64,000 bases of DNA. Origin: a bacterium. Its GTDB lineage: Bacteria > Patescibacteriota > Minisyncoccia > Phycocordibacterales > UBA918. Within the stretch, counting starts at the first letter, position 1; each line of letters begins with the position of its first letter. Below the pieces are notes generated by a model. That model searched no databases and was not told the origin of the DNA. It saw only the letters and a list, made by a program, of their open reading frames with translations. The stretch spans positions 13,435 to 77,434 of the forward strand of contig PAMC01000016.1 in the NCBI GenBank assembly GCA_002710785.1. Reading direction: 5' to 3'. This document shows positions 15,206-39,268 of this stretch, one piece after another. The translations under genes and the position numbers were made by a program.

Positions 15206-15766
15206 CTAGCCCTCGTTTGCAAGTGCTGCCAGCAGCGCCTTAAGCTCCTCTTCACCGATCGGTCGGCGAATGTGCTCGCGCACCACTCCAGCACTATTCA
15301 TAATGATGGTTTCTGGCATCGTACGACCTTCATAATTTCTATACCAGTAATCTGCCGGATCTTTGAGTACGACTAGGTCACTTTGCAGCAACTCGGGTGT
15401 TACGATCTTGAGATACTGCTGTATCGTGCCTGGATTTTCGCCCCGATTAACGGCAACAAACTGAGTGTCTGATGATGATAAAAGTGCTGCCAATGCGTGT
15501 AACGTTTGTAGTTGCACCGCACAATCTGGGCACCAGCTAGCCCAGCTGGTGACGACAAACCATTCTGCAGTTTGCTCAGTAAAGCGAAATGGTTGCTCAT
15601 TGAGTGTTAGATATGTGTACGAGAAGTGTGCTTCTGCTTCTGCCGAGCGCTCTTCTGCTATTGAATCTGGTCGCTGTTGTTGCAGGATGAATATTGTCAC
15701 CACGCCAATAATGAGGATCGACCCGATTATTAACAACGTTGTTTTTGAATCTCGCTCTATGGTCAT
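15206..15766 (-). CDS. TlpA/ResA-like membrane-anchored thiol-disulfide oxidoreductase (thioredoxin fold, CPDC)
   Basis: WASWCPDCAVQL CxxC motif in a thioredoxin-fold context; N-terminal TM LLIIGSILIIGVVTIFIL; start set to ATG at 15766, the ORF-track start is a TTG 10 codons upstream. Confidence 0.7.
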   Translation of the reverse strand: MTIERDSKTTLLIIGSILIIGVVTIFILQQQRPDSIAEERSAEAEAHFSYTYLTLNEQPFRFTEQTAEWFVVTSWASWCPDCAVQLQTLHALAALLSSSDTQFVAVNRGENPGTIQQYLKIVTPELLQSDLVVLKDPADYWYRNYEGRTMPETIIMNSAGVVREHIRRPIGEEELKALLAALANEG

Positions 15767-15916
15767 ACTTGTGACAGATTTACAACGGCTGTTCAACTTG
15801 CTGTAACTGAGATTGACGCTCCAAGTAGGTAAACGTCACCATACCAACAAGGAGGGTTAGGAAGAATAACGCAAGTAAAATTAGTACTGAACGATCCATA
15901 GAGCAATGGTACCACG

Positions 15917-17560
15917 CTACTCTTCGGCCAGGTACACAACTATGGTCGTGGTGCTCGTAGGAACCGCCGAGAGTAGTGCACCTGGTAGCGCCTCGCTCAG
16001 TGCGATCGCTTCGTCTTGAAGATCAGTTGGAAAGAGAACGACACTGTTGGTGCGAATGGTCGCGTCGGTTGCCAGTGTGGTAATCGGGAACTGATCAATG
16101 AGGGCAGCTGCTCGTTCTCCAGCCAAGCCAGGCTGTGGGCTGGCGTTGATAAAGGTGACTGAGTAACTAGCATCGTGCTGAAGACGATCGGCCGACATGC
16201 CTGGCTGTTGGAAGAAGGCGATCTCTTCAGAGTTATACGTCACTGCTTGAGCATCTAAGCCAATGGTTGCCTGATACGCATGATTGCTGGTTGCGGCCTG
16301 TGAGCGGACAAAGAGCCAGAGTATGAGCAGTAGTACGACTGCGCCAGCCACCGCAACAAGATGCGCGCGGGGTGACATAAGCCGCCAGAGGGCACGAGCC
16401 TCGCGATACAAGAGCGCGCAAACTTCTCGCGCGTGCGAAAACGTGATTTGTATACGCTGCAGCCAATCACTTTTAGTTGGTGTATCAGCTGTAGTTTGTT
16501 TGAGGTCAAGATCTGACGACTGGCGGATTAGTTCGTTTTTTACTTGGGTTGGTTGTGACTCAGAGAGACTCTTTAATGAAGTAACACCCGCCTGACGAAG
16601 CAGCCGACGGATGTACCACCGACTAACAGTGGCAATGAAGAGTATGATGCCGAGGACAATCGCAATAACGGTAAGTAGTGGCTTCACGGGAATAACCCAG
16701 AAGCTTGTCTTGGCTGAAACAAACTGTTTGGCTTCACTACCGTAGGTAAGTGTTGCCGCAGCAGTGTAACGGCCAATATCGAACAAAGAGGGTTCGCGTT
16801 GCCAAGAGAAGTCGTAGGTCCGAATCATGCCTGGGAGCGCGTTACCAAAACTAGTATTGATATTAACCGGGATGGAGCCGCGTTCAGCGCCCCACATGTT
16901 ACGAATAAGAATTTCACCAACTGGCCGAACATGCACGTTACCCGTGTTCTCGAACCGTAGCGCCAGCTCGGTACGCGGTTCGGTACTGTACGAGTTGCTG
17001 GCGGTGAAGCTACGTAAGAGCGCAGACTCGTACACATCGCCAGCGACACGTACAAACAGTAAACTGCTAATAACCTGTGCGGTACTAAAGCCTGAACTGG
17101 TTTGAGCATCAGGCGGCGCAGTGCTGATCTGAAGTGCGGCAAAATGACTACCTGGTGCAGCAACCTCAGGCGCAGTGACGACAAAGGCAACTTGCCGACT
17201 GGTATTTGGTGGGATGGTAATACTTGGCTCCGGTATATCAATCCAGTTGGCGAGCACTACCTCGTCTTCCGGCACTTGACTCTTCGGGATAATATTACTC
17301 TGACCACGCTCACCCACTGACTCAAAATGGGCTGGTTGCGTGTAAATTGTCAGCGGAAAATCATTGGTGTTTATAACTTTTACGCTACTTTGCCAAATTT
17401 CACCTGGCGCCAGTCCGAGCTCAATGAGAGTTGGGGCTACAGTGATACTCACCCCCTCAGCCTGCTGAGCGGAAACTGTGGCCGGCAAACACGCGAAAGT
17501 GTACGCGAGGGTGGCAACTATGAACAGGCGGAGCTGGTTACGTTTTGAGATTAATGTCAT
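15917..17560 (-). CDS. DUF916/DUF3324-like cell-surface protein, C-terminal TM anchor
   Basis: Signal peptide MTLISKRNQLRLFIVATLAYTFACLPATVSA; beta-rich domain VSITVAPTLIELGLAPGEIWQSSVKVINTNDFPLTIYTQP; C-terminal TM LLTVIAIVLGIILFIATV then a Lys/Arg tail and a cytoplasmic extension; start set to Met35 (17560), a 23-nt out-of-frame overlap with the upstream paralog. Confidence 0.55.
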   Translation of the reverse strand: MTLISKRNQLRLFIVATLAYTFACLPATVSAQQAEGVSITVAPTLIELGLAPGEIWQSSVKVINTNDFPLTIYTQPAHFESVGERGQSNIIPKSQVPEDEVVLANWIDIPEPSITIPPNTSRQVAFVVTAPEVAAPGSHFAALQISTAPPDAQTSSGFSTAQVISSLLFVRVAGDVYESALLRSFTASNSYSTEPRTELALRFENTGNVHVRPVGEILIRNMWGAERGSIPVNINTSFGNALPGMIRTYDFSWQREPSLFDIGRYTAAATLTYGSEAKQFVSAKTSFWVIPVKPLLTVIAIVLGIILFIATVSRWYIRRLLRQAGVTSLKSLSESQPTQVKNELIRQSSDLDLKQTTADTPTKSDWLQRIQITFSHAREVCALLYREARALWRLMSPRAHLVAVAGAVVLLLILWLFVRSQAATSNHAYQATIGLDAQAVTYNSEEIAFFQQPGMSADRLQHDASYSVTFINASPQPGLAGERAAALIDQFPITTLATDATIRTNSVVLFPTDLQDEAIALSEALPGALLSAVPTSTTTIVVYLAEE

Positions 17561-18533
17561 GATCTTCTGCTGGTGATTGCCCCTCGTACACATGCAGCGG
17601 CAAGGCAGCGGCCCCATCTGTATGTGCAATCGGTGACCGCAGCCGACGTGCAAGGTACACATAAAACAATACAGAGAGGATAACGAGCGCCACTACAAAA
17701 GCCAATAGCACCGGCCACGGCAGGTACCAAAATGAATCGCTCATTGAAACAGCTGCCAACTGCTGGTTTTGGTAATCGACGCGCACAGCTGCAGCGTACG
17801 CGCCAAGCCACGGGAGTGCCGGAGTGGCTGTCGCAACACTAAGTACCTCGCCTGGTGCCAATGGTGCGCCGCCAGGGTTGATCGGTACCGCAGCCACTTC
17901 AGCACCTCGTTTGTTAGTGATTATAATCTCTCCTTGTGGCACCACTGTTTTTGTCCCAGGATTACTAATCCGGTAGGCAATCGCAGGCTGTGTATCGGCC
18001 AAGACGAGATTCGTAATATCTAGCGACACCGCACCGTCAGTCTGAATATCTTTCTCCGGAACGGTTAGCCGTAGAACTACTCCGGGCGCCACTCCCCGCT
18101 CAACCGCTTGCTGTGCAGTCGGTCGGTCGATACCTTGCCCGAACCCAAGCAGCGCCCGGTACACACCAGACTCAACATCACGCGGAATCGCCAATCGCAC
18201 TGAAACAATAACCTCCTCCTCAGGTAATAAACGCTGTCCCGCCTGGGTCATGGTGAGCCACTTGGCGACAACTGTCTCGCCCGACGGGAGAATTTGCTCT
18301 TGGGTGCTGGTACCGTCGCGCACTTCGAGTAGGCCATGAACCGACGGGTACACTGTGATTCGGTACGGGTAGGTATTTCTCACTGTTATCTCGGCGCTCA
18401 CAATGTCACCTGGCTGAACGGTTTCCTCGATGGCACGTGGAGAAACGTGGTGAATAGTCTGAGCCGACACAGTGTTACCGCTGGCAAAGACAGCGATTGT
18501 GAGTAACATGATTATTGTCGGTAGGGCGCGCAT
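17538..18533 (-). CDS. DUF916/DUF3324-like cell-surface protein, C-terminal TM anchor
   Basis: Signal peptide; HHVSPRAIEETVQPGDIVSAEITVRNTYPYRITVYPSV; second beta domain AIAYRISNPGTKTVVPQGEIIITNKRG; TM LLAFVVALVILSVLFYVYLARRLRS; paralog of 15917..17560 and 33683..34606. Confidence 0.55.
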   Translation of the reverse strand: MRALPTIIMLLTIAVFASGNTVSAQTIHHVSPRAIEETVQPGDIVSAEITVRNTYPYRITVYPSVHGLLEVRDGTSTQEQILPSGETVVAKWLTMTQAGQRLLPEEEVIVSVRLAIPRDVESGVYRALLGFGQGIDRPTAQQAVERGVAPGVVLRLTVPEKDIQTDGAVSLDITNLVLADTQPAIAYRISNPGTKTVVPQGEIIITNKRGAEVAAVPINPGGAPLAPGEVLSVATATPALPWLGAYAAAVRVDYQNQQLAAVSMSDSFWYLPWPVLLAFVVALVILSVLFYVYLARRLRSPIAHTDGAAALPLHVYEGQSPAEDHDINLKT

Positions 18534-18535
18534 AA

Positions 18536-21500
18536 TTAGAATTCTGGTGTCACCAAGTACACAATATCGCTTGAGTAGTCGCCCGGCGGCTGTGTGCCAG
18601 TAACCACTATTCTGTATATTATATCCTCACTCTCTGTTGCTGGCACGGCACTGTACATGATTTCTTCTGGTGTAGTACTGGCCGCAGCGTAGGTATCGTC
18701 AAGGGCAAAGCGGCTGGTATTGCCTGAAAGTGTATCGTCACCAGCGTGGTACCCGAAACAGCTCGTGAGCCCAGAGCAACCAGCGCTCCATCCGCTTGGT
18801 GCGCTATTGGTGCCGGCAATGTCAGCAATGGTATCAGAATCGCTATTCTGCAGTTGTTGGCGCGTGTAGAGTTGAGTCCGATAGCCGCTGACAGCATTAG
18901 TATCGATTGATAAGCGTTGTCCAGCAATAGCATCACTGTCAGTTACCAGCGAACCGAATGGAATGGTCGTGGCAGTAGTGCTCGCAGTCGTCACCACACC
19001 TTCGGTTGAGGTGCCGGCTGGTAAACCGTTAACCGTAAAAGCGAGACTGCCCGACTCACCTACCAGCGATGGGTAGGTGGCTCCACTATCAAGTGGTACG
19101 ACGTCTCCGTTTGCTACGTCGTACACCCGGAAGTACCACACCTGACCGTAGTACCCAGAAATATTTTGGTACTGAATCGTAAACTCAAATTCAGTGGCGC
19201 TAAGCGCGGTATGCGTGTACCCAGTTAGCGTTAGATCCGATTCGTTGTGAGTACCACAGCCGACGCCCACACCAGCGTTACAGATATCGGTATTTGTTAA
19301 CACCTTTTCATCGATGATCGCATTATCGACGCCGGCGCCATCGTCGTAGCACCAGACATCGCTACCACCACAACTACCACTGTTTACCACATCGTTAACG
19401 GTGGCGAAGCCAGCTGAGTCAGAGTACTGGAGGCGGAACCGGGCGTTGGCTTGTTCGAGATTGTTAAGCTCGTCGACAATAACGCGCAGTTTAACGGTAT
19501 TACCTTTTTGAACTTCGACAGGTGCAACATTCTCAGCTGCTAGGTCGGTGCTCGGTGTGAGAGAGGTTTCATCGTCGTACCAACGCCAATCTGACTGCAC
19601 AGGTGAGTACCCTTCAGTGCGCAGCGAAGGATAGGTGAGGTATTCGGCGAGCTGCGTGCCATCATCTTGTACAACCCGGAAGCAGTAGTCGGAGCGTTGT
19701 GTTGCGCCATTGTGCTGAATCACCCAATCGTACTCAACATCTTCGTCTGCATTTACACTGTACGGGTTGGCAGTTGCTGAGCCACCCTCAACATACCGAC
19801 CAGACCGGTCGGAGACCGCCAAAAGTGTTTGGCCACCGGTTGGCGGGTTGGTACCAATAGCTGCATTGTCTGCAACCGCACCGTTATCAAAACCGCGCCA
19901 GATCGATCCGCTCCCGGGGGCTCCAACATCGTTCCAGCTGCTGATTGCAGAGCAGGTGGTTTCTTGTAGACCGTACTGCAACTTAAGTGACTGGAGCGTT
20001 GCAGGTAGCGTGCCGTTTGTGATGAGAAGTGAGGTGCGTAAGCGAATTACGTCACCGTCACCAACCGGTGTGTCGAGTACCGTGATCGGACTATTTTCAC
20101 CAATGCTGCCGGCGCCAGGGGGCCAGGCGTCGGTGGGGGTAAGGGCGTTTGTGTTGTCGTACCAGCGGTAGTCGTTTTGGCGGATTGAGACGTCTGCGGC
20201 CGGCCACTCCACAACCATGGCACGATACGAAAGGGTGCCTTGCGTGTCTGAACGCCAGATCTCAAAGGTGGTGGAGCTCGTAAGATACAAGCCAGCCATA
20301 ATTTCCGGGAAGTTGTTGGTCGCGCGATCAATAGTCGTGTTACCGAAAATCGCCGCATTATTGATGTCGTTTACACCAACCGCATCAAACGACACTGAAG
20401 TAGTGGCTGGTGCGGTACCCCCGGTAAAGAGTCCGCTCGCTGGAAAAACGGTCATCTCCCCTGCTCCGTTTTGAATATTTTCTATAACCCAGACTACCGC
20501 AGTATGGGTTTGGGCCATATCTGCGCCCGAGTCGAGCGAAAATGAGACCACTCCCATACTCGAGAGCCACGCCTGTACACCGTAGCTCGCCTGTTGTGAG
20601 GTAAACGTGTGCCGTTTTTGTGTCTCCAGAAAAGCTTTGGTGACAGCACTGACCGGCGTGATCGACTCTGTTTCGGTGACGCCGGCGCTTGAGAATTCAT
20701 GTTCCACTCGCTGCACCTTCCAGTTGCCACCTAAAAACTCCACAACAGCGTAGCTAAAGTCCGCACTGGTGTTGGTGGCACTTCTCGTAAGCACTACCTG
20801 ATTGGTGGAGCTCGACCAAGCGGCGGTTGCACGGTTGTTGCTAAAATTACCACGCGAAGCGTTAGTCATACGAGCTCCGGTAATAAACACAGCAATATCG
20901 CCATCGTCGGTAATTGGATTTATGGCTGAGCTTGTGGCGTACGTTTGTCCCGAGCTCATGCTAATAGTTCCTACGTCTCGCACAACCATTTCGTTGTCGG
21001 TACCAGGATCACCAATAAACTCAATGATTTCCCAGGCCACAAACGTGTTATTCACAGAGTCGGTATCACGCGTAATAGTAAAACTAGTTGGTAAGTTACT
21101 GGATGTGATGTACGCGGAAACATCGTCTGGATTTTGGTTACCGGCGCCGGTGTCACGACCAGCACCTGTGTGGTGGAAGTTGGTAATACGAACAAACGCC
21201 ACACTCGTTGAGGCGGGGGCGTCGTAGTCAACGCCGGCCGTAAGTGTAAGACTCGAACCACTGATGACGTTCGTGCCACGCTGCGTCTTGTAGTCACGGT
21301 TAGTTTTGGTGCTAATTTCTGGATACACATCGTACGCCACGAGAGGAGTGCCGTTCTCAACGACCCGGAAACAGAAATCAGTCTCAAATGGCGTATTGGC
21401 GGTAGTTGTGATTGAGAACTCAAAATCAACGTAATTTGTGCTCGAGAGAGTAGTGGTTGGTGTGCTAGCATCAGTTTCGGCTATACCTCCGTTACTGGTT

Positions 21501-24500
21501 AAGAAGTCTGCTTCTTCGTCACTTACACCACCATCAGCCACTGGAATATCAGTTGTATCACTCCCGTCAGTAAGAAACGTGGAGTCGTACATATCCCACG
21601 AGTCATTAGCAAAGGCATCGACGTTGGTCCAGCTGGCAACCACATCACATGTTGTCTCTCTGATGCCGTACTGCAACGTGTACTGGACAGGAACAGAAGA
21701 TGTGCCACCCTCGTTAGAGAGCCCGAGACGCAACCGGTACGGCTCGTTCTTGTCGATGTCGAGCACTGCCGTGTCCTCCGTCCCGCTGGTGGCTGAGCTA
21801 GCGGTTGTTTCAGTGCCGTTATCATTACGCCAGTGGTAATGCACCTGGGTAACAATTGCCCCTGAGACACTGGTGGTGCTCGCAATAGTAACCGCCGTAC
21901 TTGGCGCCACCGATGCGCCGCCCGAGACGGTAATTTGTGTATTCGGGTTAGTAATTTCAAGCTCAATTGTGTCCCCGTTTTGGGCAGTGTTCTCGACGTC
22001 GTACACAACATACACACATAGCGCACTGGTGGTCGAAATACCAACACTGTCAGAAAACGATGCGTTACCGTTGGCGGCGTCAAAGTTGGCGACGGTACTC
22101 CCAAATTGGGACTCTGTACCAGCGTACGATTCGCTGGCGCAGTTGTACGGTGCTGAGGTGTCGCTGTCGTAATACAGCTCAATATTAGCAACATCTGTGT
22201 CGGCATCAATGGTACCCATCTCAGCGATGGTAATGGCCGTGACATTGCGTGCGTCACTAGCCTCGGTGATAACAAACGCGCCACCGCCGTAGATGTCGAC
22301 ATCGCCAATTTCTGCATTCGCCACCTGGTTGCCAACACTGCTCACGTTAACATCAGCGGCAATGGACGCAGTTGGGTATTCAATATACTGACCGAGTACG
22401 GCACCCCCCTCACTAAGCCTAAAGCAGTAGGTGCTTCCCTGTGAAGCTGTGGTCGACGCAACGAGTGAAAACTCGTACTCCACAAATTCAGTACTGGTAA
22501 GCGTAATGCTGTTGGTTTGTGATGTGGTGTCGAGCAAGCCACCGTTTGGCGAGGCAAACGAAGAGTTTGGGTTGCTTACACCCCCACTGCTCGTCGCAAT
22601 GTCGGTGCTGTCGGTGCCGTTGGTGATAAAACTGGAATTGTGCATGTTCCACGCATCGTCTGCGTCGTCGACCCCCGTCCAGGTGCCCACATCTCCACAG
22701 GTCGGGTTAGCTACTCCAAATTCGAGCTCAAAGTTTGTACTTAGCGTTGACGTTGAGCCTTCGTTGGAAAGGGCGATACGCAGACGTCGAGGTTGATTGC
22801 GTGGTAAATCAACCAGGCCGGTATTTTCCACACCAGCGGTAACAGAGGTAGCACCACTCTCGTTACCGTTGTCATTGCGCCAATGGTACCCCGTTTGTTG
22901 AAGATCGGGCCGCACCACGGTGGTGGCACCTGAAAGAGCGATGGCAGTGTTAGGTTTTGGGGTGATGCCGCCGGTTACCGAGACGTCTGTACTCGAATTG
23001 CTAATTTCTACATCAATCGTTTGTCCGTCGTCAGCCGATCCGAGGACGTCAAGCAGTACGTACACACAGAGCGTACTTGAGGTGGCAACCGAAACCGAAT
23101 CCACGAACGTTGCAATACCATTAGCGCCGTTAAAACCGTTGGTGTCAGTCGCGCCGTACTGCAACTCTGAACCGTCATAGCTCTCACTCGAGCAGTCGTA
23201 GGGAGCTGACGTATCTAATTCGTAGAGCAGGCGAATATTGGCAATGTCGTTAGCACCATCAACCGAACCGTCTTCAGTGATCGTAATACCCGTAACCGAG
23301 CGACTGCTGTCGAACTCTGTAAACACGAAGGTGCCGCCGAGGTAGTTGCTCGTAGTGCTTCCTCGCACCTCGGAAATTTGCGAACCAATACTCGACACCG
23401 TCAGTGGTGGCGTCGGGTCGAGCATGGTTTCACCACGAATATCAAGCGGTGTGAGCGCATGCCAGCTCACGTAGAGCCGTTGGTCGGAGCGGTAATTAGT
23501 GTCGACGCCGTAGAAGTCGTCAGTGGCGACATTAAGTGGACCATTGTCGATACTCCAGCTGCCCATGGCACTGGTTGAACTCGCCCAGTACACGTTAGCG
23601 GAGGTGCTGCTGCCAATTGTGCCTCGCGCACCGTACGCAACGTAGACATCATCGGTGTTAGCGTCAACCGCCATGGCCAAATCGGTAATACCTCGACTAT
23701 CGTTGGTGAGGATGTCAGCCGTTTTACTCCAGCTGCCACCACTGTACTTGGCGGTACGAATGTCGTGGTCGGCGGCCGTAAAATTATTGTTGTCTGCAGT
23801 ATACGCCAGGTGAACATCGCCAGTGTCCGGGTCGACCACTGCAGTCATGCCTACTTCGTACGTCGCGCTCTCAACCGCCGACGCATCAATCGCGGTCCAC
23901 GATGCGTCCCAACTCGTGTTGTCCCACACCTTCGAGCGAACATCATTAGCGTTACGGTCGCGGTCAATGACCATGATGTCGCCACCTAACAGTGGCACAA
24001 GAATCTGCATGTCGCCTGTAACTACATCAAGCGGGTTAGTACCAGTTTCTGACCACGATGTCGACAGGTCACAGTTGCTGCTACACTCAACAATAAAACC
24101 ATCCGTGTTATCGGTTAAGCCTGTGTAAATGGTGCCGTCTGTCCCCTTCGTAAGTGCGGGTTTTGCTGCGCCGTGGCTAATAGTTGGTGTCTGGCCAGTG
24201 GTGGCATCGGTACCTGAGAGGCCGACAAGCAAAGTGTCGTTGGTGGTATCGAGGCGGTTGTAGCGGATATCTTCTCGCGCACTGTTTTGGTGCATGGTGA
24301 CAATGTGGATGTAGTCACCAGTGTCCCCCGGCGTCCACTGATCGTACCAGACTGAGATCGAGCCACAGTCGCTAAAGTTATTAAACTGCGTCGCACCGCC
24401 CCAAGTAGCACCGCCATCAGTGGTTTTTGAGTAGTAACAGGTACCGTTGGTGATGGTATAAAACCGGTAGCCAGTTTGATCATCGGTAAAGACAGTAGAA

Positions 24501-24697
24501 AAACCAGATTTTTGGTGCCGAGTCGGTTGGTTATCTGCGTTGTTGGCAATCACAGCTTCGGCAGCAATTATAGGCCGAAAGGAGAAGAAAAGCAGCCCAA
24601 ACAGAAGTACCATCAAGCACGAAAACCAAATCCGTCTCTCAGTCTGAGTCCATATGCAACAAAACTCACGGACGTTGCCGAATATCGTTAAATTCAC
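18536..24697 (-). CDS. giant secreted protein (2053 aa): N-terminal Asp-box (BNR) beta-propeller, four copies of an uncharacterised about 200-aa module, conserved C-terminal domain
   Basis: Signal anchor; Asp-box SKTTDGGATWGG and S-x-SWS repeats; modules starting YHWRNDNG (x2), YRWYDN, DWRWYDDE, each with R-L-R, L-Q-Y-G/S, C-F-R and Y-P motifs; C-terminus ...YSSDIVYLVTPEF. Confidence 0.8.
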   Translation of the reverse strand: MNLTIFGNVREFCCIWTQTERRIWFSCLMVLLFGLLFFSFRPIIAAEAVIANNADNQPTRHQKSGFSTVFTDDQTGYRFYTITNGTCYYSKTTDGGATWGGATQFNNFSDCGSISVWYDQWTPGDTGDYIHIVTMHQNSAREDIRYNRLDTTNDTLLVGLSGTDATTGQTPTISHGAAKPALTKGTDGTIYTGLTDNTDGFIVECSSNCDLSTSWSETGTNPLDVVTGDMQILVPLLGGDIMVIDRDRNANDVRSKVWDNTSWDASWTAIDASAVESATYEVGMTAVVDPDTGDVHLAYTADNNNFTAADHDIRTAKYSGGSWSKTADILTNDSRGITDLAMAVDANTDDVYVAYGARGTIGSSTSANVYWASSTSAMGSWSIDNGPLNVATDDFYGVDTNYRSDQRLYVSWHALTPLDIRGETMLDPTPPLTVSSIGSQISEVRGSTTSNYLGGTFVFTEFDSSRSVTGITITEDGSVDGANDIANIRLLYELDTSAPYDCSSESYDGSELQYGATDTNGFNGANGIATFVDSVSVATSSTLCVYVLLDVLGSADDGQTIDVEISNSSTDVSVTGGITPKPNTAIALSGATTVVRPDLQQTGYHWRNDNGNESGATSVTAGVENTGLVDLPRNQPRRLRIALSNEGSTSTLSTNFELEFGVANPTCGDVGTWTGVDDADDAWNMHNSSFITNGTDSTDIATSSGGVSNPNSSFASPNGGLLDTTSQTNSITLTSTEFVEYEFSLVASTTASQGSTYCFRLSEGGAVLGQYIEYPTASIAADVNVSSVGNQVANAEIGDVDIYGGGAFVITEASDARNVTAITIAEMGTIDADTDVANIELYYDSDTSAPYNCASESYAGTESQFGSTVANFDAANGNASFSDSVGISTTSALCVYVVYDVENTAQNGDTIELEITNPNTQITVSGGASVAPSTAVTIASTTSVSGAIVTQVHYHWRNDNGTETTASSATSGTEDTAVLDIDKNEPYRLRLGLSNEGGTSSVPVQYTLQYGIRETTCDVVASWTNVDAFANDSWDMYDSTFLTDGSDTTDIPVADGGVSDEEADFLTSNGGIAETDASTPTTTLSSTNYVDFEFSITTTANTPFETDFCFRVVENGTPLVAYDVYPEISTKTNRDYKTQRGTNVISGSSLTLTAGVDYDAPASTSVAFVRITNFHHTGAGRDTGAGNQNPDDVSAYITSSNLPTSFTITRDTDSVNNTFVAWEIIEFIGDPGTDNEMVVRDVGTISMSSGQTYATSSAINPITDDGDIAVFITGARMTNASRGNFSNNRATAAWSSSTNQVVLTRSATNTSADFSYAVVEFLGGNWKVQRVEHEFSSAGVTETESITPVSAVTKAFLETQKRHTFTSQQASYGVQAWLSSMGVVSFSLDSGADMAQTHTAVVWVIENIQNGAGEMTVFPASGLFTGGTAPATTSVSFDAVGVNDINNAAIFGNTTIDRATNNFPEIMAGLYLTSSTTFEIWRSDTQGTLSYRAMVVEWPAADVSIRQNDYRWYDNTNALTPTDAWPPGAGSIGENSPITVLDTPVGDGDVIRLRTSLLITNGTLPATLQSLKLQYGLQETTCSAISSWNDVGAPGSGSIWRGFDNGAVADNAAIGTNPPTGGQTLLAVSDRSGRYVEGGSATANPYSVNADEDVEYDWVIQHNGATQRSDYCFRVVQDDGTQLAEYLTYPSLRTEGYSPVQSDWRWYDDETSLTPSTDLAAENVAPVEVQKGNTVKLRVIVDELNNLEQANARFRLQYSDSAGFATVNDVVNSGSCGGSDVWCYDDGAGVDNAIIDEKVLTNTDICNAGVGVGCGTHNESDLTLTGYTHTALSATEFEFTIQYQNISGYYGQVWYFRVYDVANGDVVPLDSGATYPSLVGESGSLAFTVNGLPAGTSTEGVVTTASTTATTIPFGSLVTDSDAIAGQRLSIDTNAVSGYRTQLYTRQQLQNSDSDTIADIAGTNSAPSGWSAGCSGLTSCFGYHAGDDTLSGNTSRFALDDTYAAASTTPEEIMYSAVPATESEDIIYRIVVTGTQPPGDYSSDIVYLVTPEF

Positions 24698-24715: not shown

Positions 24716-26296
24716 TTACTGCTCAGTACTGGTGGCTGCCGGTGGAATAACCAGGTCAAATTCGGGGTCTGGGAGCACGTCTGGAGCCGGTGACTTCTCG
24801 GGTACGGTAGAGGTTGCCAAATCGAGGATGAGCGGGTTATCGGAAGCTTCGGCTGGCGTACTGGTTGCTGCTGGCGCAGGCTCAGTTTGCGGAGCACTAC
24901 TCGTGGCAGTAGTGGCACTGGAACCAGTGCCAGACATCAGTGGCTCCGACACAATCTCATCTTCTTCAAGAGTAGGTTTGTACTGCACAAGCGCTCGGAC
25001 CTCGTTTGTTGGATCACTCGAAGGTAGCTCATCAGGGAGTTCTGCTGGCAAAGCCTCGATTGGTACTAACTCTTGGGTAATCGGGTCAAACCCGCGAATG
25101 ACTCGGTCCCCTTCTGGGGTAAGGCCTTCGTACACGAGTAGCATGCGAGCATTTTGCACTGATGCACCCACTGATGCGTCGTCAATTCGAGACTCTTCTT
25201 CGTTTTTAATATCGTACACAACAACTTCCTGGTTACCGTCGTACATTCGCTTCCAGACCACGAAACCTTCACTGACTGACGGTGCAACGTCCGGCATTGT
25301 GTTGTCGGTCAGCTGCCGCACTGATTCGCCGTCGTGCAACATAATTTCCCAGCTCTCGCTTCCCCACTGCTGCCACACAATAATGTCTCCCTGTCTAGTC
25401 GGTTCCATGTTGTTACTGCGTCCGGCAGTGAGTTGGGTTTCTGTTTCCTCATCAAAGTCGTAAACCATGATCTGGTACCGTCCAGAAATGAGCGTATGCC
25501 AGACGAGGGTGTCAGATTGCGCGTCGTAATACGGGGCAGCATCATCCCGTTTATTGTTGGTGATTTGGTACGTTTTTCCCTCCATCACCGCAAAAATCTC
25601 GCGATCCCCATCGCCATCAAGCGCTACATAGAAGCTGTCGGCTGGCGGCGGCTCTGGAGCACTTGATCCACAGTAGTACGAGCCGTCAGCTACCCGTACG
25701 CAGTCATCTTTAGAAAATTGATAGTAGTTTTGATTGGTGGCACCAGTGTGGCTAAGCGGGACAACTGGTGACGTAGTTGCGGCTACATCAGAAGCTGCCT
25801 CCGCTGCAGAGTCAGCCAGTAAGTTGTCCTCATCTGCGCTATCAGTGACGCTTTCCTCGTCGAGGACCGATGTGCTGGTTGCCTGCACAGGTGGCGTCGA
25901 TGAGGCCGAGGAGGTGTCATCAAGGTCCGGGTCGGGAACCACTTCATCACTATCCGGAGGGGCAGCTGGTGTACCTGATGGCTGATCTTCCTCGATTTCA
26001 GGTTCGGGCTGCACTACTTCGCTCGCTATTTCTTCTGGTGGTGCAATGTCTTCCGCCGATATACTAGACCCGGTCTCCACTCCGCCGCCCGTATCAGCTG
26101 GTTGCGTTTCCTCCACTTCTGCTACCGTGTCAGTCTCAATTTCTGTCGGTACCTCGTTGGCAAAAACCAAACTAACCGGCTGCGAGAACATGACGAGCAA
26201 CACCCACGTCGAAAACCACCGCACAAGACGGTTACCAAATACAAACCGGTAGAGCCACACCGACTGAATGCTATTGGTACTTATGGGCTTTGACAT
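24716..26296 (-). CDS. secreted beta-propeller-repeat protein with acidic low-complexity N- and C-terminal regions
   Basis: Signal anchor; repeats (GDIIVWQQWGSESWEIMLHDGESVRQLTDN; GFVVWKRMYDGNQEVVVYDIKNEEESRIDD; TLVWHTLISGRYQIMVYDFDEETETQLTAG) resembling TolB/PD40-type blades; long E/D/P/T-rich tracts. Confidence 0.55.
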   Translation of the reverse strand: MSKPISTNSIQSVWLYRFVFGNRLVRWFSTWVLLVMFSQPVSLVFANEVPTEIETDTVAEVEETQPADTGGGVETGSSISAEDIAPPEEIASEVVQPEPEIEEDQPSGTPAAPPDSDEVVPDPDLDDTSSASSTPPVQATSTSVLDEESVTDSADEDNLLADSAAEAASDVAATTSPVVPLSHTGATNQNYYQFSKDDCVRVADGSYYCGSSAPEPPPADSFYVALDGDGDREIFAVMEGKTYQITNNKRDDAAPYYDAQSDTLVWHTLISGRYQIMVYDFDEETETQLTAGRSNNMEPTRQGDIIVWQQWGSESWEIMLHDGESVRQLTDNTMPDVAPSVSEGFVVWKRMYDGNQEVVVYDIKNEEESRIDDASVGASVQNARMLLVYEGLTPEGDRVIRGFDPITQELVPIEALPAELPDELPSSDPTNEVRALVQYKPTLEEDEIVSEPLMSGTGSSATTATSSAPQTEPAPAATSTPAEASDNPLILDLATSTVPEKSPAPDVLPDPEFDLVIPPAATSTEQ

Positions 26297-26521: not shown

Positions 26522-27250
26522 TTAGTTAAAGAAGGAGTCGGCCAAAATAATAGCAAAATCAGTGAAATTCATGCGCCTGTCCTGGTTAAAATCGTACAGC
26601 CACTGCCTGTTGCGCCAGGCGCGCATAAATTCGTTAACATCGGCCAAACTGACGTTACCGTCGCCATCGATATCCGTAATAAACGAAATGGCCACATCAC
26701 CACTCAGGATGCCGTCTTCACTCACTCCAACCACCAAAATTGGTGTATCGGCAATCTCATCCACTTCACTACCGTTCCCATCACCAGCCAAAAGCGTCGT
26801 CTCACTGACGCTAAATTCAGCGCGTCCACCTGTATTGGCTTTGAAGTTAATTCGCGCAACTTGATGTTCACCCACAAACCCCTTGCGGAAGGTGCCGCCA
26901 CGCAGAATCACCTGCGACCCCTCAACGTACGGATCTTGTGTCCAGAGTGAGATTACTGACTCACCAGTGTCTATGCCGGTTACCTCAACCTGATTGCTGG
27001 GAAACGAGACGGCAATATCCACTGCATTTACCGAGCGGTGTGCACCAGCATAGACGTAGACTGAAAAAGAATCCCCGGCAGCAACACTGCGCTCTGGTGC
27101 CTCCAGCCTAATGTAAGAAGTTGTGTCAGTTAGGAGGACTGTGGCAACAAGCGAAAGGGCTGCGAGTGTGGCAAACGAAAACGTGTGTCGAATGGTACGC
27201 ACTCGGGCCTGTTTACGAAAACGGTGGAGTAAGCGACGGAGAAACATCAT
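26522..27250 (-). CDS. cohesin-like domain + dockerin protein
   Basis: N-terminal signal; cohesin-like block SFSVYVYAGAHRSVNAVDIAVSFPSNQVEVTGIDTGESVISLW...HQVARINFKANTGGRAEFSVSETTLLAGDGNGSEV; C-terminal dockerin F-hand repeats DIDGDGNVSLADVNEFMRAW and DFNQDRRMNFTDFAIILA. Confidence 0.6.
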   Translation of the reverse strand: MMFLRRLLHRFRKQARVRTIRHTFSFATLAALSLVATVLLTDTTSYIRLEAPERSVAAGDSFSVYVYAGAHRSVNAVDIAVSFPSNQVEVTGIDTGESVISLWTQDPYVEGSQVILRGGTFRKGFVGEHQVARINFKANTGGRAEFSVSETTLLAGDGNGSEVDEIADTPILVVGVSEDGILSGDVAISFITDIDGDGNVSLADVNEFMRAWRNRQWLYDFNQDRRMNFTDFAIILADSFFN

Positions 27251-27900
27251 ATGGCATATAACGACTGACGGATGTCGGCGATGGTAGTATTCAGTTCCGC
27301 TACTCGGTTTGAGACCTGCTGCGCTCTGACGAGCTTAGCTTCTAGCACATCCGGATCAGGTACCCCGGTTTGCAAAATAACGATAATTTCACCTTGAATG
27401 TCGACTTGCTCGCTCAGCAAGTCCCCCCGCTCCCGTTCAAAATCAACTAACGACTGCCAGGTGAGCACCGGATACTCACTGACAGCAGCCGGCTCAAGTG
27501 CCGTGAGGAGCGATACGTACTCGTTGTACACCTCAAACTCCCGCTCAAGGCGTGCCACTATAACTGCCTTACGTTCTGCGAAAAACCCTCCGCAAGCGTC
27601 GAATAAACGACTGATGTCGTCGAGCTCAGTAGCGGTAAGATTGGCTAAATTGTTCAAAAGTTGCTCAAACTGCCGTCTGCTGTCGGGTGAGCAGTCGCGA
27701 ATAATGACTTCTGCGACAGCATCAGCTCTATTTTGGGCTGTCAATTCGGCGAGGGTAGTGAGTCGTTGTTCTTGTTTGGCAATTGCGCGTTCCAGGGTCA
27801 AAACTGTCGTACGCTGTGACTGCTCAATGTAGAGAGAAGCAAACGCAAAACAAAGTGCCAAACCAACACCAAGCGTGATGACAATATGATGATTTCGCAT
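27247..27900 (-). CDS. hypothetical N-terminally anchored coiled-coil protein
   Basis: 217 aa; TM IVITLGVGLALCFAFASLYI then heptad-like Q/E/L/R-rich sequence; ATGA-type overlap with the downstream gene. Confidence 0.45.
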   Translation of the reverse strand: MRNHHIVITLGVGLALCFAFASLYIEQSQRTTVLTLERAIAKQEQRLTTLAELTAQNRADAVAEVIIRDCSPDSRRQFEQLLNNLANLTATELDDISRLFDACGGFFAERKAVIVARLEREFEVYNEYVSLLTALEPAAVSEYPVLTWQSLVDFERERGDLLSEQVDIQGEIIVILQTGVPDPDVLEAKLVRAQQVSNRVAELNTTIADIRQSLYAI

Positions 27901-27906
27901 AGTGTA

Positions 27907-30896: not shown

Positions 30897-32042
30897 TCAG
30901 AATATTGGTGTGGCAACGTAGCGCAGTGTGGTTGAGTAGGCATCTGAGGCTTCTTGCAAAGCCGAGATTTCTACTCGGTACCCCACCCGCGTGGTACCCT
31001 CACCGGTTCCTGTCCCATCAGTAGGACCGGTATGACTCATCACTACAACAGGTGTAGTGCTCGCCGCTACCCACGAGTTGCTCGTAAACTCTGCGCTGCG
31101 TGTTGTTGTCGCATCATCAGAGGTTAGACCCCAGTGCCCAAAGGTGGTTGGATCACCTGGTTGCGCCGCTGGAGAGAACCAACTTGTAGGTGTGGTGGTG
31201 TAATCACCATCGCGGAACGAGTCAATGATAGCGCCGCCTGAAGACATAAATTCTCCATCTTGCGCCACGGTGACTACGTACCCTTGCGATGCGTTAGTAA
31301 CCACCCGCAATTCTTGAGCCGTCGTGCTCGCGACCCCTTGCGTCAGATTTCCGAACGCAAGCGTAGTTGGAGTCGACGAACCGGTGGTGGTGACACCGTT
31401 AACAGTCTGACCGCCGCCCACCGCGAGTACCTGAAAGGTAAACGTGGTGTCGACAGTCGCCGTTACGGTAACCGTGTCAATAATGACAACCTCGGTCTCA
31501 CCAGTATCAGTTTGTGTTCCCGCAATGCCAATCTCGTAGCTACCCGTTACGCTCGGGTTCACGAGCTGATTGGAGCCAGACCCGCCAAAGCTGGCATGGT
31601 CGCCAATCTCAATTGTGGTTGAACCGTTAGCTGCGATTGAAGCGCCGTCGCCAGGACAAAACTCAATCGTCAGTACTGCTCCACTAAAGCTGATACCGAT
31701 TTCATCAGAGCCGACGGTGCAGTCTGTGGAAACTGACAAGTCAGTCGCGCCATCCTGCACGTCGATGTCTGTAGCAGCGATACTAGACGTACCGGTGAAC
31801 GGACCATCCGAGAAATCGATGGTGATAGTTTCACCATTGCTGATACCCGTAGGGGTCGTAAAGACAATGGTGTGGTTCGAGGCAGAACCAGGGCTCGAAT
31901 CGCTCAACGTGTCAGACACGTTGGCAATACTTGCAGCGCTTACCAGCCAGCTGGAGTGAAAGTTGGTGCTCCAAAATAGGAGCCCGACACTCACAAACGC
32001 TGCAACAGCTTTGAGTAGCCGGAATGATTTCATTCCAGACAT
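30897..32042 (-). CDS. secreted Thr/Gly/Ser-rich beta protein sharing the C-terminal domain of the 2053-aa giant
   Basis: Signal peptide MSGMKSFRLLKAVAAFVSVGLLFWS; C-terminal about 150 aa align to the 18536..24697 C-terminus (FGHWGLTSDD.../FGYHAGDDTLSG; WVAASTTP/YAAASTTP; ...LRYVATPIF/...IVYLVTPEF). Confidence 0.65.
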   Translation of the reverse strand: MSGMKSFRLLKAVAAFVSVGLLFWSTNFHSSWLVSAASIANVSDTLSDSSPGSASNHTIVFTTPTGISNGETITIDFSDGPFTGTSSIAATDIDVQDGATDLSVSTDCTVGSDEIGISFSGAVLTIEFCPGDGASIAANGSTTIEIGDHASFGGSGSNQLVNPSVTGSYEIGIAGTQTDTGETEVVIIDTVTVTATVDTTFTFQVLAVGGGQTVNGVTTTGSSTPTTLAFGNLTQGVASTTAQELRVVTNASQGYVVTVAQDGEFMSSGGAIIDSFRDGDYTTTPTSWFSPAAQPGDPTTFGHWGLTSDDATTTRSAEFTSNSWVAASTTPVVVMSHTGPTDGTGTGEGTTRVGYRVEISALQEASDAYSTTLRYVATPIF

Positions 32043-33682: not shown

Positions 33683-34606
33683 CTAGCTACGGCGACGATA
33701 CACCAGTAGACCGATAATGATTAAGACGGTGAGAATCGGCAAAATAATTGAGACCTTGTGCGGCAGTGACAAGCCAGCAAAACCATACCCGGCCGTCTGC
33801 AACGTGCCGTACGGCAGGATATTTAGCGTCAGCTCACCCTCCTGTTTAATGTCATCTTGATTATAAATGGAGTACCGTGCCAGGTACGAACCAGCTGGCA
33901 AGCGCGTTGGTATCTCGGCCACCACGTCTTCAGTTGCAAATGGCTGCACTCTGACAATTCGGTTGCGGTGGTGAGTCTCCTCCAGAAGCGTCTGTCCGGT
34001 TGAATCGTAGATCTTGAAAACCACATCGCTCGGCGCTACGTCAACGTTGCCGGTATTCTCGATACGCATGCCAAAGTTAATCTTAGCTGGGAAGTAGAGC
34101 CAGCCAACTTTGTGTCCCTCGTTAAAGTCGGGCAATTCGATCTTGCGTACACGAAAATCAAATATCTCTCTATCAATGATCGTTAGGTCGATGTCGACTT
34201 GTGCACCTAAAGAAATGTTAACGGCGCCAGCAGTTTCAGAGCCCGGTGGTGGTGCAGTCTTAATGCGGATCTTGCCAGAGTAACGTCGGAATTCTGCGTC
34301 GTCAGGGACCGTCACCCGAACGGTCACCGGCACTTTTTTGGCGCCAACTGGCATAGCAATGAGATCACCCTCGAGCACCTCTACCCAGTCAGCAATCGTG
34401 GGGGCATCAACCGTGATGCGGGCGTTGAGTGGGGTTGATGGGTCGCTGCGGACCATGAGAATCTGCTGTTCGTATACTGAGTTACGCGTCAAGCTCGTAT
34501 TACGCACGTACGGTGGTGTAATACCAAAACCAGCGTAGGAAAGATTGACCCCCACCACGTAGGCAATAAAGAACACCGAGAAAAATACGTAGAGCTTCTT
34601 TATCAT
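33683..34606 (-). CDS. DUF916/DUF3324-like cell-surface protein, C-terminal TM anchor
   Basis: Signal peptide MIKKLYVFFSVFFIAYVVGVNLSYA (start set to Met17); GFGITPPYVRNTSLTRNSVYEQQILMVRSDPSTPLNARITVD; second beta domain; TM ILPILTVLIIIGLLVYRRRS. Confidence 0.55.
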   Translation of the reverse strand: MIKKLYVFFSVFFIAYVVGVNLSYAGFGITPPYVRNTSLTRNSVYEQQILMVRSDPSTPLNARITVDAPTIADWVEVLEGDLIAMPVGAKKVPVTVRVTVPDDAEFRRYSGKIRIKTAPPPGSETAGAVNISLGAQVDIDLTIIDREIFDFRVRKIELPDFNEGHKVGWLYFPAKINFGMRIENTGNVDVAPSDVVFKIYDSTGQTLLEETHHRNRIVRVQPFATEDVVAEIPTRLPAGSYLARYSIYNQDDIKQEGELTLNILPYGTLQTAGYGFAGLSLPHKVSIILPILTVLIIIGLLVYRRRS

Positions 34607-34711
34607 GTCACAATCACTTCTTCCCATTATCACCTCAACTGGGCGATAAAACAACAGCCACCGTCTGGATAACGGTGGCTATCTGGTTAGCTATTTCAGC
34701 AAGTTTTAGGC

Positions 34712-37910: not shown

Positions 37911-37936
37911 ACTACGTACTCAGTATAACAACGGGG

Positions 37937-39262: not shown

Positions 39263-39268
39263 AACAGT

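What the first reader, a model, noticed from the sequence alone, without database searches (positions are those of the whole stretch)
18536..19000. Conserved C-terminal domain shared by the 2053-aa giant and the 381-aa secreted protein (30897-31350)
The last about 150 aa of the two proteins align with conserved motifs. They match in FG[HY][WH]xG..D, in [WY][VA]AASTTP, and in Y-x-x-x-[IL]-x-Y-[VL]-[AV]-T-P-x-F at the extreme C-terminus. Such shared C-terminal beta modules are typical of sorting, anchoring or polymerisation domains (for example WxL or pilin-like). Here they occur next to DUF916-like partners, which resembles Gram-positive Csc cell-surface-complex clusters.
Basis: partly seen in the sequence, partly recalled or inferred. 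Interest (0 to 1): 0.55.

Follow-up and report, generated by a model that had tools for sequence, protein, structure and literature searches.

The report
Pilin-type tail on giant adhesin
The giant protein and the small secreted protein of this candidate-phyla-radiation bacterium end in the same real C-terminal domain. It is a distant relative of the subunit-joining domain of the recently described CPR 'Pam' pilus, and it sits beside membrane-anchored helper proteins related to the WxL-interacting proteins of Gram-positive bacteria.

Summary
The last ~172 aa of the 2053-aa giant and the last ~186 aa of the 381-aa protein are homologous (BLASTP E=1e-5; family profile-profile E=5.7e-27).

The shared unit is a conserved beta-strand plus a C-terminal domain that always ends at the protein's last residue (…Y-x-x-T-P-x-F). 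Both copies match NCBIfam NF058581 'CPR_Pam_pilin_C' end to end, but below its cut-off. That model describes the donor-strand-accepting domain of the Pam pilus (2026 preprint on Saccharimonadia).

The 381-aa protein has the Pam pilin layout: signal peptide, beta-sandwich, highly conserved linker strand, C-terminal domain. It is conserved across Paceibacteria.

The giant is a conserved ~2050-aa orthologue group whose last 360 aa match a ~440-aa second pilin family.

The domain is not a Pfam WxL member; its similarity to WxL is weak (P≈0.005-0.02).

Best reading: a Pam-like donor-strand pilus with a giant pilus-borne adhesin. This is a new variant of a known kind.

The parts
18539..19054 (-). 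Giant protein aa 1882-2053: linker-type strand (SLAFTVNG, about nt 19025-19048) plus the Pam-pilin-like C-terminal domain, ending ...YLVTPEF-stop
   Evidence: hhalign against the 380-aa family, E=5.7e-27. NF058581 match over model positions 2-148 of 148, E=5.4e-5 to 6.9e-5. CTD HMM hit E=2.1e-65.
19055..19609 (-). Giant aa 1697-1881: 'WRWYDD' beta domain that precedes the linker. Together with the CTD it is orthologous to the ~440-aa second pilin family.
   Evidence: P0172 residues 87-443 align with giant residues 1697-2053 at 46% identity, E=3e-96. See also alignment A3.
18536..24697 (-). 2053-aa giant surface protein. It has an N-terminal hydrophobic signal-like segment, about 1690 aa of repeated beta modules (YHWRND at residues 604 and 954, WRWYDD at 1704), then the pilin-type tail.
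   Evidence: A full-length orthologue, P0272 (2062 aa), is 45% identical. A syntenic 2063-aa gene is present in Kaiserbacteria.
30900..31421 (-). 381-aa protein aa 208-381: Pam-pilin-like C-terminal domain, ending ...RYVATPIF-stop
   Evidence: NF058581 match over model positions 3-148 of 148, E=5.1e-7. 29 of 52 orthologues also hit it. AF2 pLDDT is about 85-95.
31422..31466 (-). 381-aa protein aa 193-207: linker strand VTATVDTTFTFQVLA, the proposed donor strand
   Evidence: It is one of the three most conserved 11-residue windows of the family (0.90). Mean conservation of the linker is 0.85, against 0.69 for the NTD and 0.73 for the CTD. AF2 predicts a strand preceded by a low-confidence hinge.
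31467..31934 (-). 381-aa protein aa 37-192: N-terminal beta-sandwich domain with the invariant Cys108/Cys129 pair
31935..32042 (-). 381-aa protein aa 1-36: signal peptide region (hydrophobic helix, A-x-A type site)
   Evidence: Sequence and an AF2 helix at residues 3-24. No signal-peptide predictor was available.
33683..34606 (-). 323-aa (probably 307-aa) WxLIP/PapD-like protein: signal peptide, two beta domains, C-terminal TM helix. It occupies the conserved position next to the 380-aa pilin gene.
   Evidence: It is a paralogue of the 547-aa protein (E=1e-5). In 44 of 45 GTDB loci with full flanks, such an ORF lies within 8 kb of the pilin gene.
17538..18533 (-). 331-aa WxLIP/PapD-like membrane-anchored protein, immediately downstream of the giant
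15917..17560 (-). 547-aa paralogue of the 331-aa protein (the listed ORF reaches 17662, but the likely start is MTLISK at 17560). It is WxLIP-like, with a TM helix, a second TM helix and a LytR_C-like domain.
   Evidence: BLASTP against the 331-aa protein, E=6e-17. PF06030 E=1.6e-3 and LytR_C E=5e-3, both below cut-off.

Best explanation
The shared C-terminal module is the subunit-joining (pilin) domain of a Pam-like, donor-strand-exchange surface fibre of a monoderm CPR bacterium of the Paceibacteria/Parcubacteria.

Proposed mechanism, all of it inferred:
- Each subunit is exported by Sec.
- Its incomplete Ig-like C-terminal domain is first capped by a strand from a membrane-anchored WxLIP/PapD-like helper (the 323-, 331- and 547-aa proteins).
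- The cap is then replaced by the conserved linker strand that lies just upstream of the C-terminal domain of the next subunit. Subunits therefore chain head to tail.
- The 381-aa protein is the major shaft pilin.
- The 2053-aa giant carries the same linker and C-terminal domain behind about 1690 aa of beta-rich modules. It is therefore built into the fibre as an adhesin, most likely at or near the tip.

Shown here: homology of the two tails, their relation to the Pam pilin C-terminal domain, the pilin-like architecture and conservation pattern, the WxLIP/PapD-like nature of the neighbours, and conserved synteny.

Inferred: polymerisation itself, the chaperone role of the neighbours, and the position and adhesive role of the giant.
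For: 1. The tails are homologous.

2. Both tails match NF058581 CPR_Pam_pilin_C over the whole 148-position model:
- E=5.1e-7 for the 381-aa protein and about 6e-5 for the giant.
- 29 of 52 members of the 380-aa family hit it.
- 33 of 36 members of the 440-aa family hit it, best E=2e-10.

3. PamA and PamB were solved by cryo-EM as donor-strand-exchange filaments. Their layout is signal peptide, beta-sandwich NTD, linker strand and truncated-Ig CTD, and the linker and CTD groove are the most conserved parts (10.64898/2026.03.03.709456).

4. The 381-aa protein shows the same layout in AF2 at pLDDT 88. It also shows the same conservation pattern: the linker at 193-203, the C-terminal strand and GHWG are its three most conserved windows. 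It has an invariant cysteine pair.

6. The domain ends at the very last residue in all 150 best representatives. It is carried by proteins of 154 to 5226 aa. That fits a module whose terminal strand lines an acceptor groove.

7. The whole ~50-kb cluster, including a 2063-aa giant, is syntenic in Kaiserbacteria. A compact version (443-aa protein with the domain, 393-aa protein with the domain, WxLIP-like protein, redoxin) exists in another Paceibacterota genome.
Against: - The NF058581 scores (21-30 bits) are well below the curated cut-off of 55 bits, so this is remote homology and not membership by NCBI's rule.
- No Pam pilin sequence or structure could be compared directly. PDB 25PZ and 25QA are not in the copy searched.
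- Fold searches with the pilin model returned only generic Ig-like proteins and adhesins.
- No PamR-type terminator or PamT-type tip protein was identified in the window.
- The giant keeps a linker-like strand, so a tip position is not required.
- No multimer prediction or experiment shows strand exchange here.
- The published model for the related WxL/WxLIP system is static anchoring, not polymerisation.
Confidence: 0.65

Rival explanations
1. Static anchoring, as in the published WxL/WxLIP model. The C-terminal domain is a docking module. A strand from the membrane-anchored WxLIP-like protein completes it permanently. Both the 381-aa protein and the giant are then displayed individually on the cell surface, and no fibre forms.
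For: - The partners are true WxLIP homologues.
- For Firmicute clusters, AF2 predicts that a WxLIP hairpin strand completes the WxL beta-sandwich, and the authors propose anchoring (PMC10599100).
- The layout of small protein, large protein and WxLIP is the same (PMC9772566).
- The window holds three WxLIP-like paralogues for two proteins with the domain.
Against: - The domain is significantly related to the Pam pilin C-terminal domain. That domain has been seen polymerised by strand exchange.
- The strand just upstream of the domain is among the most conserved segments of both families. A pure docking module would not need this.
- The 381-aa protein has the full two-domain pilin architecture.
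Confidence: 0.2
2. A C-terminal secretion or sorting signal domain. It would be recognised by an export or attachment machine, for example the nearby MacB-type ABC transporter, and possibly removed. This would be analogous to T9SS C-terminal domains or to LPXTG and PEP-CTERM signals.
For: - The domain is strictly C-terminal on very different cargo proteins.
- A MacB-type ABC transporter is conserved in the cluster.
Against: - Both proteins already have N-terminal Sec-type signals.
- The domain has about 170 residues and is predicted to fold into a beta domain.
- There is no TM segment or basic tail after the motif; the proteins end at ...TP-x-F.
- No Pfam or NCBIfam sorting-signal model hits.
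- The closest relative is a structural pilin domain retained in the mature filament.
Confidence: 0.05
3. Chance or compositional similarity between two Thr/Ser/Gly-rich beta proteins.
For: Identity is only 27% and both proteins are low in complexity in places.
Against: - hhalign gives E=5.7e-27.
- Database-wide E-values reach 5e-9.
- The two tails independently match the same NCBIfam model end to end.
- 2420 representative clusters carry the domain, always at the C-terminus.
Confidence: 0.01

Closest known systems
Pam pilus pilins PamA/PamB/PamE/PamT of Ca. Mycosynbacter amalyticus (Saccharimonadia); NCBIfam NF058581 CPR_Pam_pilin_C and NF058579 PamT; bioRxiv 10.64898/2026.03.03.709456
   Same: - CPR-specific and Sec-exported.
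- Beta-sandwich NTD, conserved linker strand and C-terminal truncated-Ig-type domain.
- The linker and the C-terminal domain are the most conserved parts, and cysteines are paired.
- The operon holds membrane-anchored two-Ig-domain helpers.
- Several pilin paralogues occur per locus.
- The N-terminal ~70 aa of some 440-aa family members match the PamT model.
   Different: - Scores are far below the NCBIfam cut-offs.
- The lineage differs: Paceibacteria/Parcubacteria, which the preprint does not mention.
- Here the domain is also fused to giant proteins of 1000-5200 aa.
- The genomic neighbourhood differs. Here it contains cohesin/dockerin-like proteins, a MacB-type ABC transporter, a 7718-aa giant and a redoxin. 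In M. amalyticus it contains ATP synthase, CorB and MFS genes.
- No PamR was recognised.
WxL / Csc cell-surface-complex clusters of Firmicutes (Pfam WxL PF13731; WxLIP = DUF916 PF06030 + DUF3324 + TM)
   Same: - One small and one large secreted protein share a domain that is always C-terminal.
- The large protein carries N-terminal adhesive beta domains.
- In the Firmicute system a partner strand is predicted to complete the shared domain.
   Different: - There is no Pfam WxL hit, and the dual W-x-L motif is absent. Only HWGL is present in the small protein, and the terminal motif is Y-V-A-T-P rather than W-x-L.
- Similarity to genuine WxL profiles is only P=0.005-0.02.
- The small protein has an extra N-terminal domain and a linker.
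- There is no LPXTG protein.
- The host is a CPR bacterium, not a Firmicute.
Chaperone-usher pili (Pap/Fim; two-domain tip adhesins FimH/PapG; PapD/FimC chaperones)
   Same: - The logic of donor-strand complementation and exchange.
- An adhesin made of a receptor-binding part plus a C-terminal pilin domain.
   Different: - There is no outer membrane and no usher.
- The helpers are membrane-anchored by a C-terminal helix.
- The donor strand is an internal linker, not an N-terminal extension.
- There is no sequence similarity.

Membership tests
Pam pilins (NCBIfam NF058581 CPR_Pam_pilin_C) | C-terminal domain scores above the curated cut-off (55 bits) | tested here: not met
   381-aa protein: 29.9 bits, E=5.1e-7. 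Giant tail: 21-23 bits, E about 6e-5. Both cover model positions 2/3-148 of 148. Best family member: E=2e-10. This is remote homology, not membership by NCBI's rule.
Pam pilins | [quoted passage not shown] | tested here: met
   AF2 model of the 381-aa protein: helix 3-24, about 10-strand NTD, hinge, strand, CTD, pLDDT 88. For the giant, only the last 360 aa fit this layout, by homology to the 440-aa family. Whether the CTD fold is truncated could not be inspected.
Pam pilins | [quoted passage not shown] | tested here: met
   The three most conserved 11-residue windows are 300-310, 371-381 and 193-203. Mean conservation is 0.85 for the linker, 0.69 for the NTD and 0.73 for the CTD. Compare Fig. 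S5 of the preprint.
Pam pilins | Assembly into filaments by donor-strand exchange | not testable with these tools
   No multimer prediction and no experiment were possible. PDB 25PZ and 25QA are not in the libraries.
Pam operon | Membrane-anchored FimC/PapD-like chaperones (signal peptide, two beta domains, C-terminal TM helix) in the same locus | tested here: met
Pam operon | PamT tip subunit (CTD only) and PamR anchor (RbmA-like, N-terminal strand, TM helix) | tested here: inconclusive
WxL domain (Pfam PF13731) | Match to the Pfam WxL model | tested here: not met
   None of 52 members of the 380-aa family hits it at E<=10. The giant has no hit at E<=0.1. Genuine WxL proteins fetched as controls score E down to 2e-72.
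WxL domain | Two conserved W-x-L motifs about 68-106 residues apart | tested here: not met
   The 381-aa protein has one literal W-G-L (GHWGL). At the second position it has Y-V-A, 71 residues later. The giant has neither motif.
WxL domain | Profile-profile homology to genuine WxL domains | tested here: inconclusive
   hhalign gives P=0.019 (Prob 2.5%) and P=0.0048 (Prob 7%) with broader profiles. None of 200 column shuffles reaches the score; the reversed control scores 15.0 against 21.1. The aligned block is always the same (FG...GWxLxV...qF). At relaxed settings the alignment runs colinearly to the C-terminal Y..tLtW motif.
WxL/Csc cluster | Cluster with a small and a large protein sharing a strictly C-terminal domain, plus a WxLIP (DUF916-DUF3324-TM) | tested here: met
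Chaperone-usher pili | Outer-membrane usher and periplasmic soluble chaperone | tested here: not met
   No usher-type Pfam hit among the 20 cluster proteins scanned. The helpers carry a TM helix.
TasA/camelysin fibres | Match to the TasA/camelysin family, or a specific fold match | tested here: not met
Sortase-dependent pilins | C-terminal LPXTG-type motif followed by a TM segment and a basic tail | tested here: not met
   Both proteins end directly at ...TPIF and ...TPEF with no TM tail.

The most novel reading that the evidence does not exclude
The Paceibacterial cluster may be a bridge showing that CPR Pam pili and the Firmicute WxL/Csc cell-surface complexes are one ancient monoderm system. 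That system would be usher-less and based on donor strands, with WxLIP corresponding to PamC/PamD and the WxL domain corresponding to the pilin C-terminal domain. In that case WxL proteins would be strand-complemented, possibly polymerising, subunits rather than mere peptidoglycan binders. The pilin tail would also be a general device by which CPR bacteria mount giant adhesins of up to ~5000 aa on fibres.
Probability: 0.35. Interest if true: 0.8.

Novelty: new variant of a known kind. Interest (0 to 1): 0.6.

Why it matters
- CPR/Patescibacteria are mostly uncultured epibionts, and how they attach to hosts is largely unknown. The Pam pilus was described only in 2026, and mainly for Saccharimonadia and Microgenomatia.
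- This locus extends a Pam-type joining domain to Paceibacteria. There it defines a very large family: 2420 clusters at 50% identity.
- It shows the domain fused to many giant proteins, which gives a concrete and testable role for some CPR 'giant genes' as fibre-borne adhesins.
- It links the Pam helpers by sequence and fold to the WxL-interacting proteins of lactobacilli, enterococci and Listeria. That suggests a shared assembly principle for two systems so far treated separately.

Tried and rejected
- **Pfam.** Scans of both proteins and of 52 orthologues found no WxL, TasA/camelysin, pilin or sorting-signal family.
- **Foldseek (PDB), whole 381-aa model.** Only generic two-Ig adhesins at low TM-score.
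- **Sequence searches of PDB.** Profiles of the pilin, the domain and the helper found nothing. The Pam entries 25PZ and 25QA are not yet in the copy.
- **Preprint supplement.** It holds no sequences, so there was no direct comparison with PamA-E, PamT or PamR.
- **Second pair of shared tails.** The C-terminal region shared by the 631-aa protein and the 7718-aa giant was tested as a possible further member. It shows no similarity to the domain or to WxL.
- **PamT-like module.** None found in the window.
- **Promoter/terminator scan around the 381-aa gene.** Uninformative.
- **hhalign in global mode.** Meaningless result.
- **My BLASTP self-comparison of the giant.** It printed no repeats.
Full report
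**Setting.** Almost all genes of the window lie on the minus strand. They include uvrA/B/C-type and other housekeeping genes, together with a run of very large secreted proteins. The closest relatives of the proteins studied come from Candidatus Paceibacterota, Kaiserbacteria, Nomurabacteria and 'Parcubacteria' MAGs. The organism is therefore a CPR/Patescibacteria bacterium of the Paceibacteria group.

**Observation.**
- The two ORFs are as described: 18536-24697(-) is 2053 aa and 30897-32042(-) is 381 aa.
- BLASTP aligns giant residues 1895-2053 with residues 211-381 of the small protein at 27% identity, E=1e-5.
- A search with the giant's last 254 aa against 5.8 billion proteins recovers members of the 380-aa family (P0120 E=4.9e-9, P0036 E=6.5e-6).
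- A profile-profile comparison of the two families gives probability 99.7%, E=5.7e-27 over 174 columns. It runs from a conserved strand (DTxFTFtV / tLsFsIxG) to the terminal P-x-F.
- A profile of the module finds only these two ORFs in the window.

**What the small protein is.**
- It has more than 890 homologues, nearly all about 380 aa and 52-55% identical across several Paceibacteria lineages. None has a Pfam domain.
- At least 149 loci in GTDB species representatives encode it.
- AF2 with 52 sequences gives pLDDT 88. The model has a signal helix, a beta-sandwich of about 10 strands, a low-confidence hinge, a single strand and a C-terminal beta domain.
- The three most conserved 11-residue windows are TFGHWGLTSDD (300-310), the terminal strand TTLRYVATPIF (371-381) and the linker VTATVDTTFTF (193-203). 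The linker is more conserved than either domain.
- Cys108 and Cys129 are invariant.

**What the giant is.**
- Its last 360 aa are 46% identical to a conserved family of about 440 aa (P0172, E=3e-96).
- That family consists of a signal peptide, a short N-terminal module with two SxN[FY] strands, a 'WRWYDD' beta domain with cysteine pairs, the linker and the shared C-terminal domain.
- The giant replaces the short N-terminal module with about 1690 aa of beta-rich modules, including repeated YHWRND-type domains.
- It is not a one-off. P0272 (2062 aa) is 45% identical over the full length, and Kaiserbacteria have a 2063-aa gene at the syntenic place.

**Closest described relative.**
- NCBIfam NF058581 'CPR_Pam_pilin_C' matches both tails over the whole 148-position model. 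The scores are E=5.1e-7 (29.9 bits) for the small protein and about 6e-5 (21-23 bits) for the giant.
- It also matches 29 of 52 members of the 380-aa family and 33 of 36 members of the 440-aa family, best E=2e-10.
- All scores lie below the curated cut-off of 55 bits.
- The family was defined by a 2026 preprint (10.64898/2026.03.03.709456). It reports cryo-EM filaments of PamA and PamB from Ca. Mycosynbacter amalyticus.
  - The pilins have a signal peptide, a nine-strand beta-sandwich NTD, a linker strand and a truncated Ig-like CTD. The CTD accepts the neighbour's linker by donor-strand exchange.
  - The linker and the CTD groove are the most conserved regions (Fig. S5), and the pilins have paired cysteines.
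  - The operon encodes the FimC/PapD-like chaperones PamC and PamD with C-terminal TM helices, a CTD-only tip subunit PamT, and an RbmA-like anchor PamR.
  - The preprint reports the system mainly in Saccharimonadia and Microgenomatia. It does not mention Parcubacteria/Paceibacteria, giant proteins, WxL or DUF916.
- Four members of the 440-aa family also match the PamT model (NF058579) with their N-terminal ~70 residues. The giant lacks that module, and none is present elsewhere in the window.

**The partners.**
- Three proteins share the same plan of signal peptide, two beta domains and a TM helix. They are 33683-34654 (323 aa), 17538-18533 (331 aa) and 15917-17560 (547 aa).
- They are paralogues (E=6e-17 and 1e-5).
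- AF2 of the 331-aa protein (pLDDT 84.6) shows two beta-sandwiches and a TM helix.
- Pfam WxLIP_PGBD (DUF916) hits are weak: E=1.6e-3 for the 547-aa protein, 4 of 17 family members with best E=9e-6, and one precomputed hit.
- To test the link properly I fetched genuine WxL clusters from metagenomes through the conserved DUF916 motif NQIDKxxxYFDLK. I confirmed their WxL proteins with Pfam, E down to 2e-72.
- A profile of their WxLIP proteins aligns with the CPR helper family at probability 96.7%, E=3.6e-10, over 230 columns spanning both domains.
- In 44 of 45 GTDB loci with complete ±8-kb flanks, such a helper lies near the 380-aa pilin gene, usually 1.5-3 kb upstream on the same strand.

**Is the tail a WxL domain?**
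- By Pfam it is not. None of 52 family members hits PF13731, and neither does the giant.
- The dual W-x-L motif is missing.
- hhalign of genuine WxL domains against the tail gives P=0.019, and P=0.0048 with broader profiles. It always picks the same block: FG…VxVTDxRG..GWxLxV..qF against FGxL…LxVxTNA..GYxVxV..qL.
- None of 200 column-shuffled controls reaches the score. A reversed control gives 15.0 against 21.1.
- At relaxed settings the alignment continues colinearly to Y..tLtWxL.dtP against Y..tLtYvAtPxF.
- This is suggestive and not significant. I record it as inconclusive.
- The published description of WxL clusters matches the layout here: a small and a large protein share a strictly C-terminal domain, the large one carries N-terminal adhesive domains, a WxLIP is present, and AF2 predicts that a WxLIP strand completes the WxL sandwich (PMC9772566, PMC10599100).
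- No paper in the library connects WxL with donor-strand assembly or with Pam.

**Breadth.**
- A profile of the module finds 2420 representative clusters at E<=1e-3, 1334 at E<=1e-10 and 368 at E<=1e-30, among 1.84 billion representatives.
- In all 150 best hits the module ends at the protein's last residue.
- Carrier proteins range from 154 to 5226 aa. Many are giants of 1000-5200 aa.

**Synteny.**
- In Kaiserbacteria CP060228 the gene order equals that of the window: 7750-aa giant, FN3 protein, ABC ATPase, MacB-type permease, 627-aa protein, 318-aa helper, 368-aa dockerin protein, 385-aa pilin, 356-aa protein, 589-aa cohesin protein, 227-aa protein, 247-aa protein, 617-aa protein, 2063-aa giant.
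- A compact version occurs in another Paceibacterota genome: a 443-aa protein with the tail, 417- and 462-aa proteins, a 393-aa protein with the tail, a 357-aa WxLIP-like protein and, further on, a redoxin.

**Mechanism.** I commit to a Pam-like donor-strand fibre.
- The 381-aa protein is the shaft pilin, and its linker (aa ~197-207) fills the groove of the neighbouring C-terminal domain.
- The WxLIP/PapD-like membrane proteins cap and hand over subunits at the membrane.
- The giant enters the same fibre through its own linker and C-terminal domain, and presents about 1690 aa of adhesive modules, most likely distally.
- Shown: the homologies, the architectures, the conservation pattern and the gene linkage.
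- Inferred: polymerisation, the chaperone function, and the placement and adhesive role of the giant.
- The main rival is WxL-style static anchoring to the helper (about 0.2). A sorting-signal role and chance similarity are unlikely.

**Novelty and score.**
- The kind of system is known from the 2026 preprint and from an NCBIfam model.
- Four things are new relative to what I could find:
  - a large, divergent Paceibacterial branch below the family cut-off;
  - fusion of the pilin tail to giant proteins as a recurrent design;
  - demonstrable homology of the helpers with Firmicute WxLIP, which ties Pam pili to WxL/Csc clusters;
  - a conserved ~50-kb surface supercluster.
- I rate it a new variant of a known kind, with interest 0.6.

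**Numbering note.** Alignments A1 and A2 were built from references that dropped the start codon. AF2 and 'invariant column' numbers are therefore one lower than ORF numbering. The coordinates in 'parts' use ORF numbering.

Noticed in passing
window 34712-36607(-) and 40800-63956(-): A second small/giant pair. The 631-aa protein and the 7718-aa giant share a different C-terminal region of about 325 aa (E=7e-11) ending YWGIxxP...G.Y.G.N.F. The 631-aa gene lies directly upstream of the 323-aa WxLIP-like gene, and the arrangement is conserved in 45 loci. No similarity to the Pam-like tail or to WxL was detected (hhalign P=0.04-0.5).
   Followed up: partly
window 26522-30781(-) and 32535-33668(-): Cohesin- and dockerin-like proteins lie inside the cluster. 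The 378-aa and 586-aa proteins have cohesin-like domains. The 378-aa protein has a clear C-terminal TM segment followed by an acidic tail; the 586-aa protein ends in a charged C-terminal tail. The 242-aa protein has cohesin- and dockerin-like domains, and the 377-aa protein has DUF4215, Big_6 and dockerin domains. Most hits are below or near the Pfam cut-offs. The order is conserved in Kaiserbacteria.
   Followed up: no
window 36702-40780(-): A MacB/LolCE-type ABC permease, an ABC ATPase with a ~200-aa C-terminal extension, and a 503-aa protein with three FN3 domains (purple-acid-phosphatase N-terminal type) sit between the 7718-aa giant and the 631-aa protein. They are syntenic in Kaiserbacteria.
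   Followed up: no
window 15206-15796(-): A membrane-anchored redoxin/thioredoxin-like protein lies directly downstream of the WxLIP-like genes. The same arrangement occurs in locus L001 of another Paceibacterota genome. The pilin-type proteins have conserved cysteine pairs, so this may be a dedicated disulfide oxidoreductase.
   Followed up: no
window 15917-17662(-): The 581-aa ORF overlaps the 331-aa gene by 125 nt. Its likely true start is MTLISK at 17560. After the WxLIP-like part and a TM helix it has a second TM helix and a LytR_C-like domain, which the other two paralogues lack. It could be an anchoring (PamR-like) variant.
   Followed up: partly
window 24716-26296(-): A 526-aa secreted protein with an acidic, low-complexity N-terminal half and TolB-like beta-propeller repeats (TIGR04275 E=2.5e-11, below cut-off) lies immediately upstream of the giant. 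A 617-aa protein occupies the same position in Kaiserbacteria.
   Followed up: no
P0172, P0220, P0228, P0231 (the 440-aa family; not in the window): The N-terminal ~70 aa of the 440-aa pilin family consist of a signal peptide and two SxN[FY]-containing strands. In three of the ten proteins scanned individually (four of the 36 family members) they match the N-terminus of the NCBIfam PamT model (E=1.7e-8 to 5e-7). This hints that the family descends from, or acts like, a tip subunit.
   Followed up: partly
The word-indexed protein search with the giant's tail returned no protein longer than 445 aa, and not even the window's own giant. The exhaustive representative search returned many giants with the tail. 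Long proteins appear to be under-recovered by the indexed search.
   Followed up: no
loci L021/L037, L045/L079, L025/L069, L065/L086: Several Paceibacteria genomes carry two copies of the 380-aa pilin gene, tens of kb apart on the same contig.
   Followed up: no
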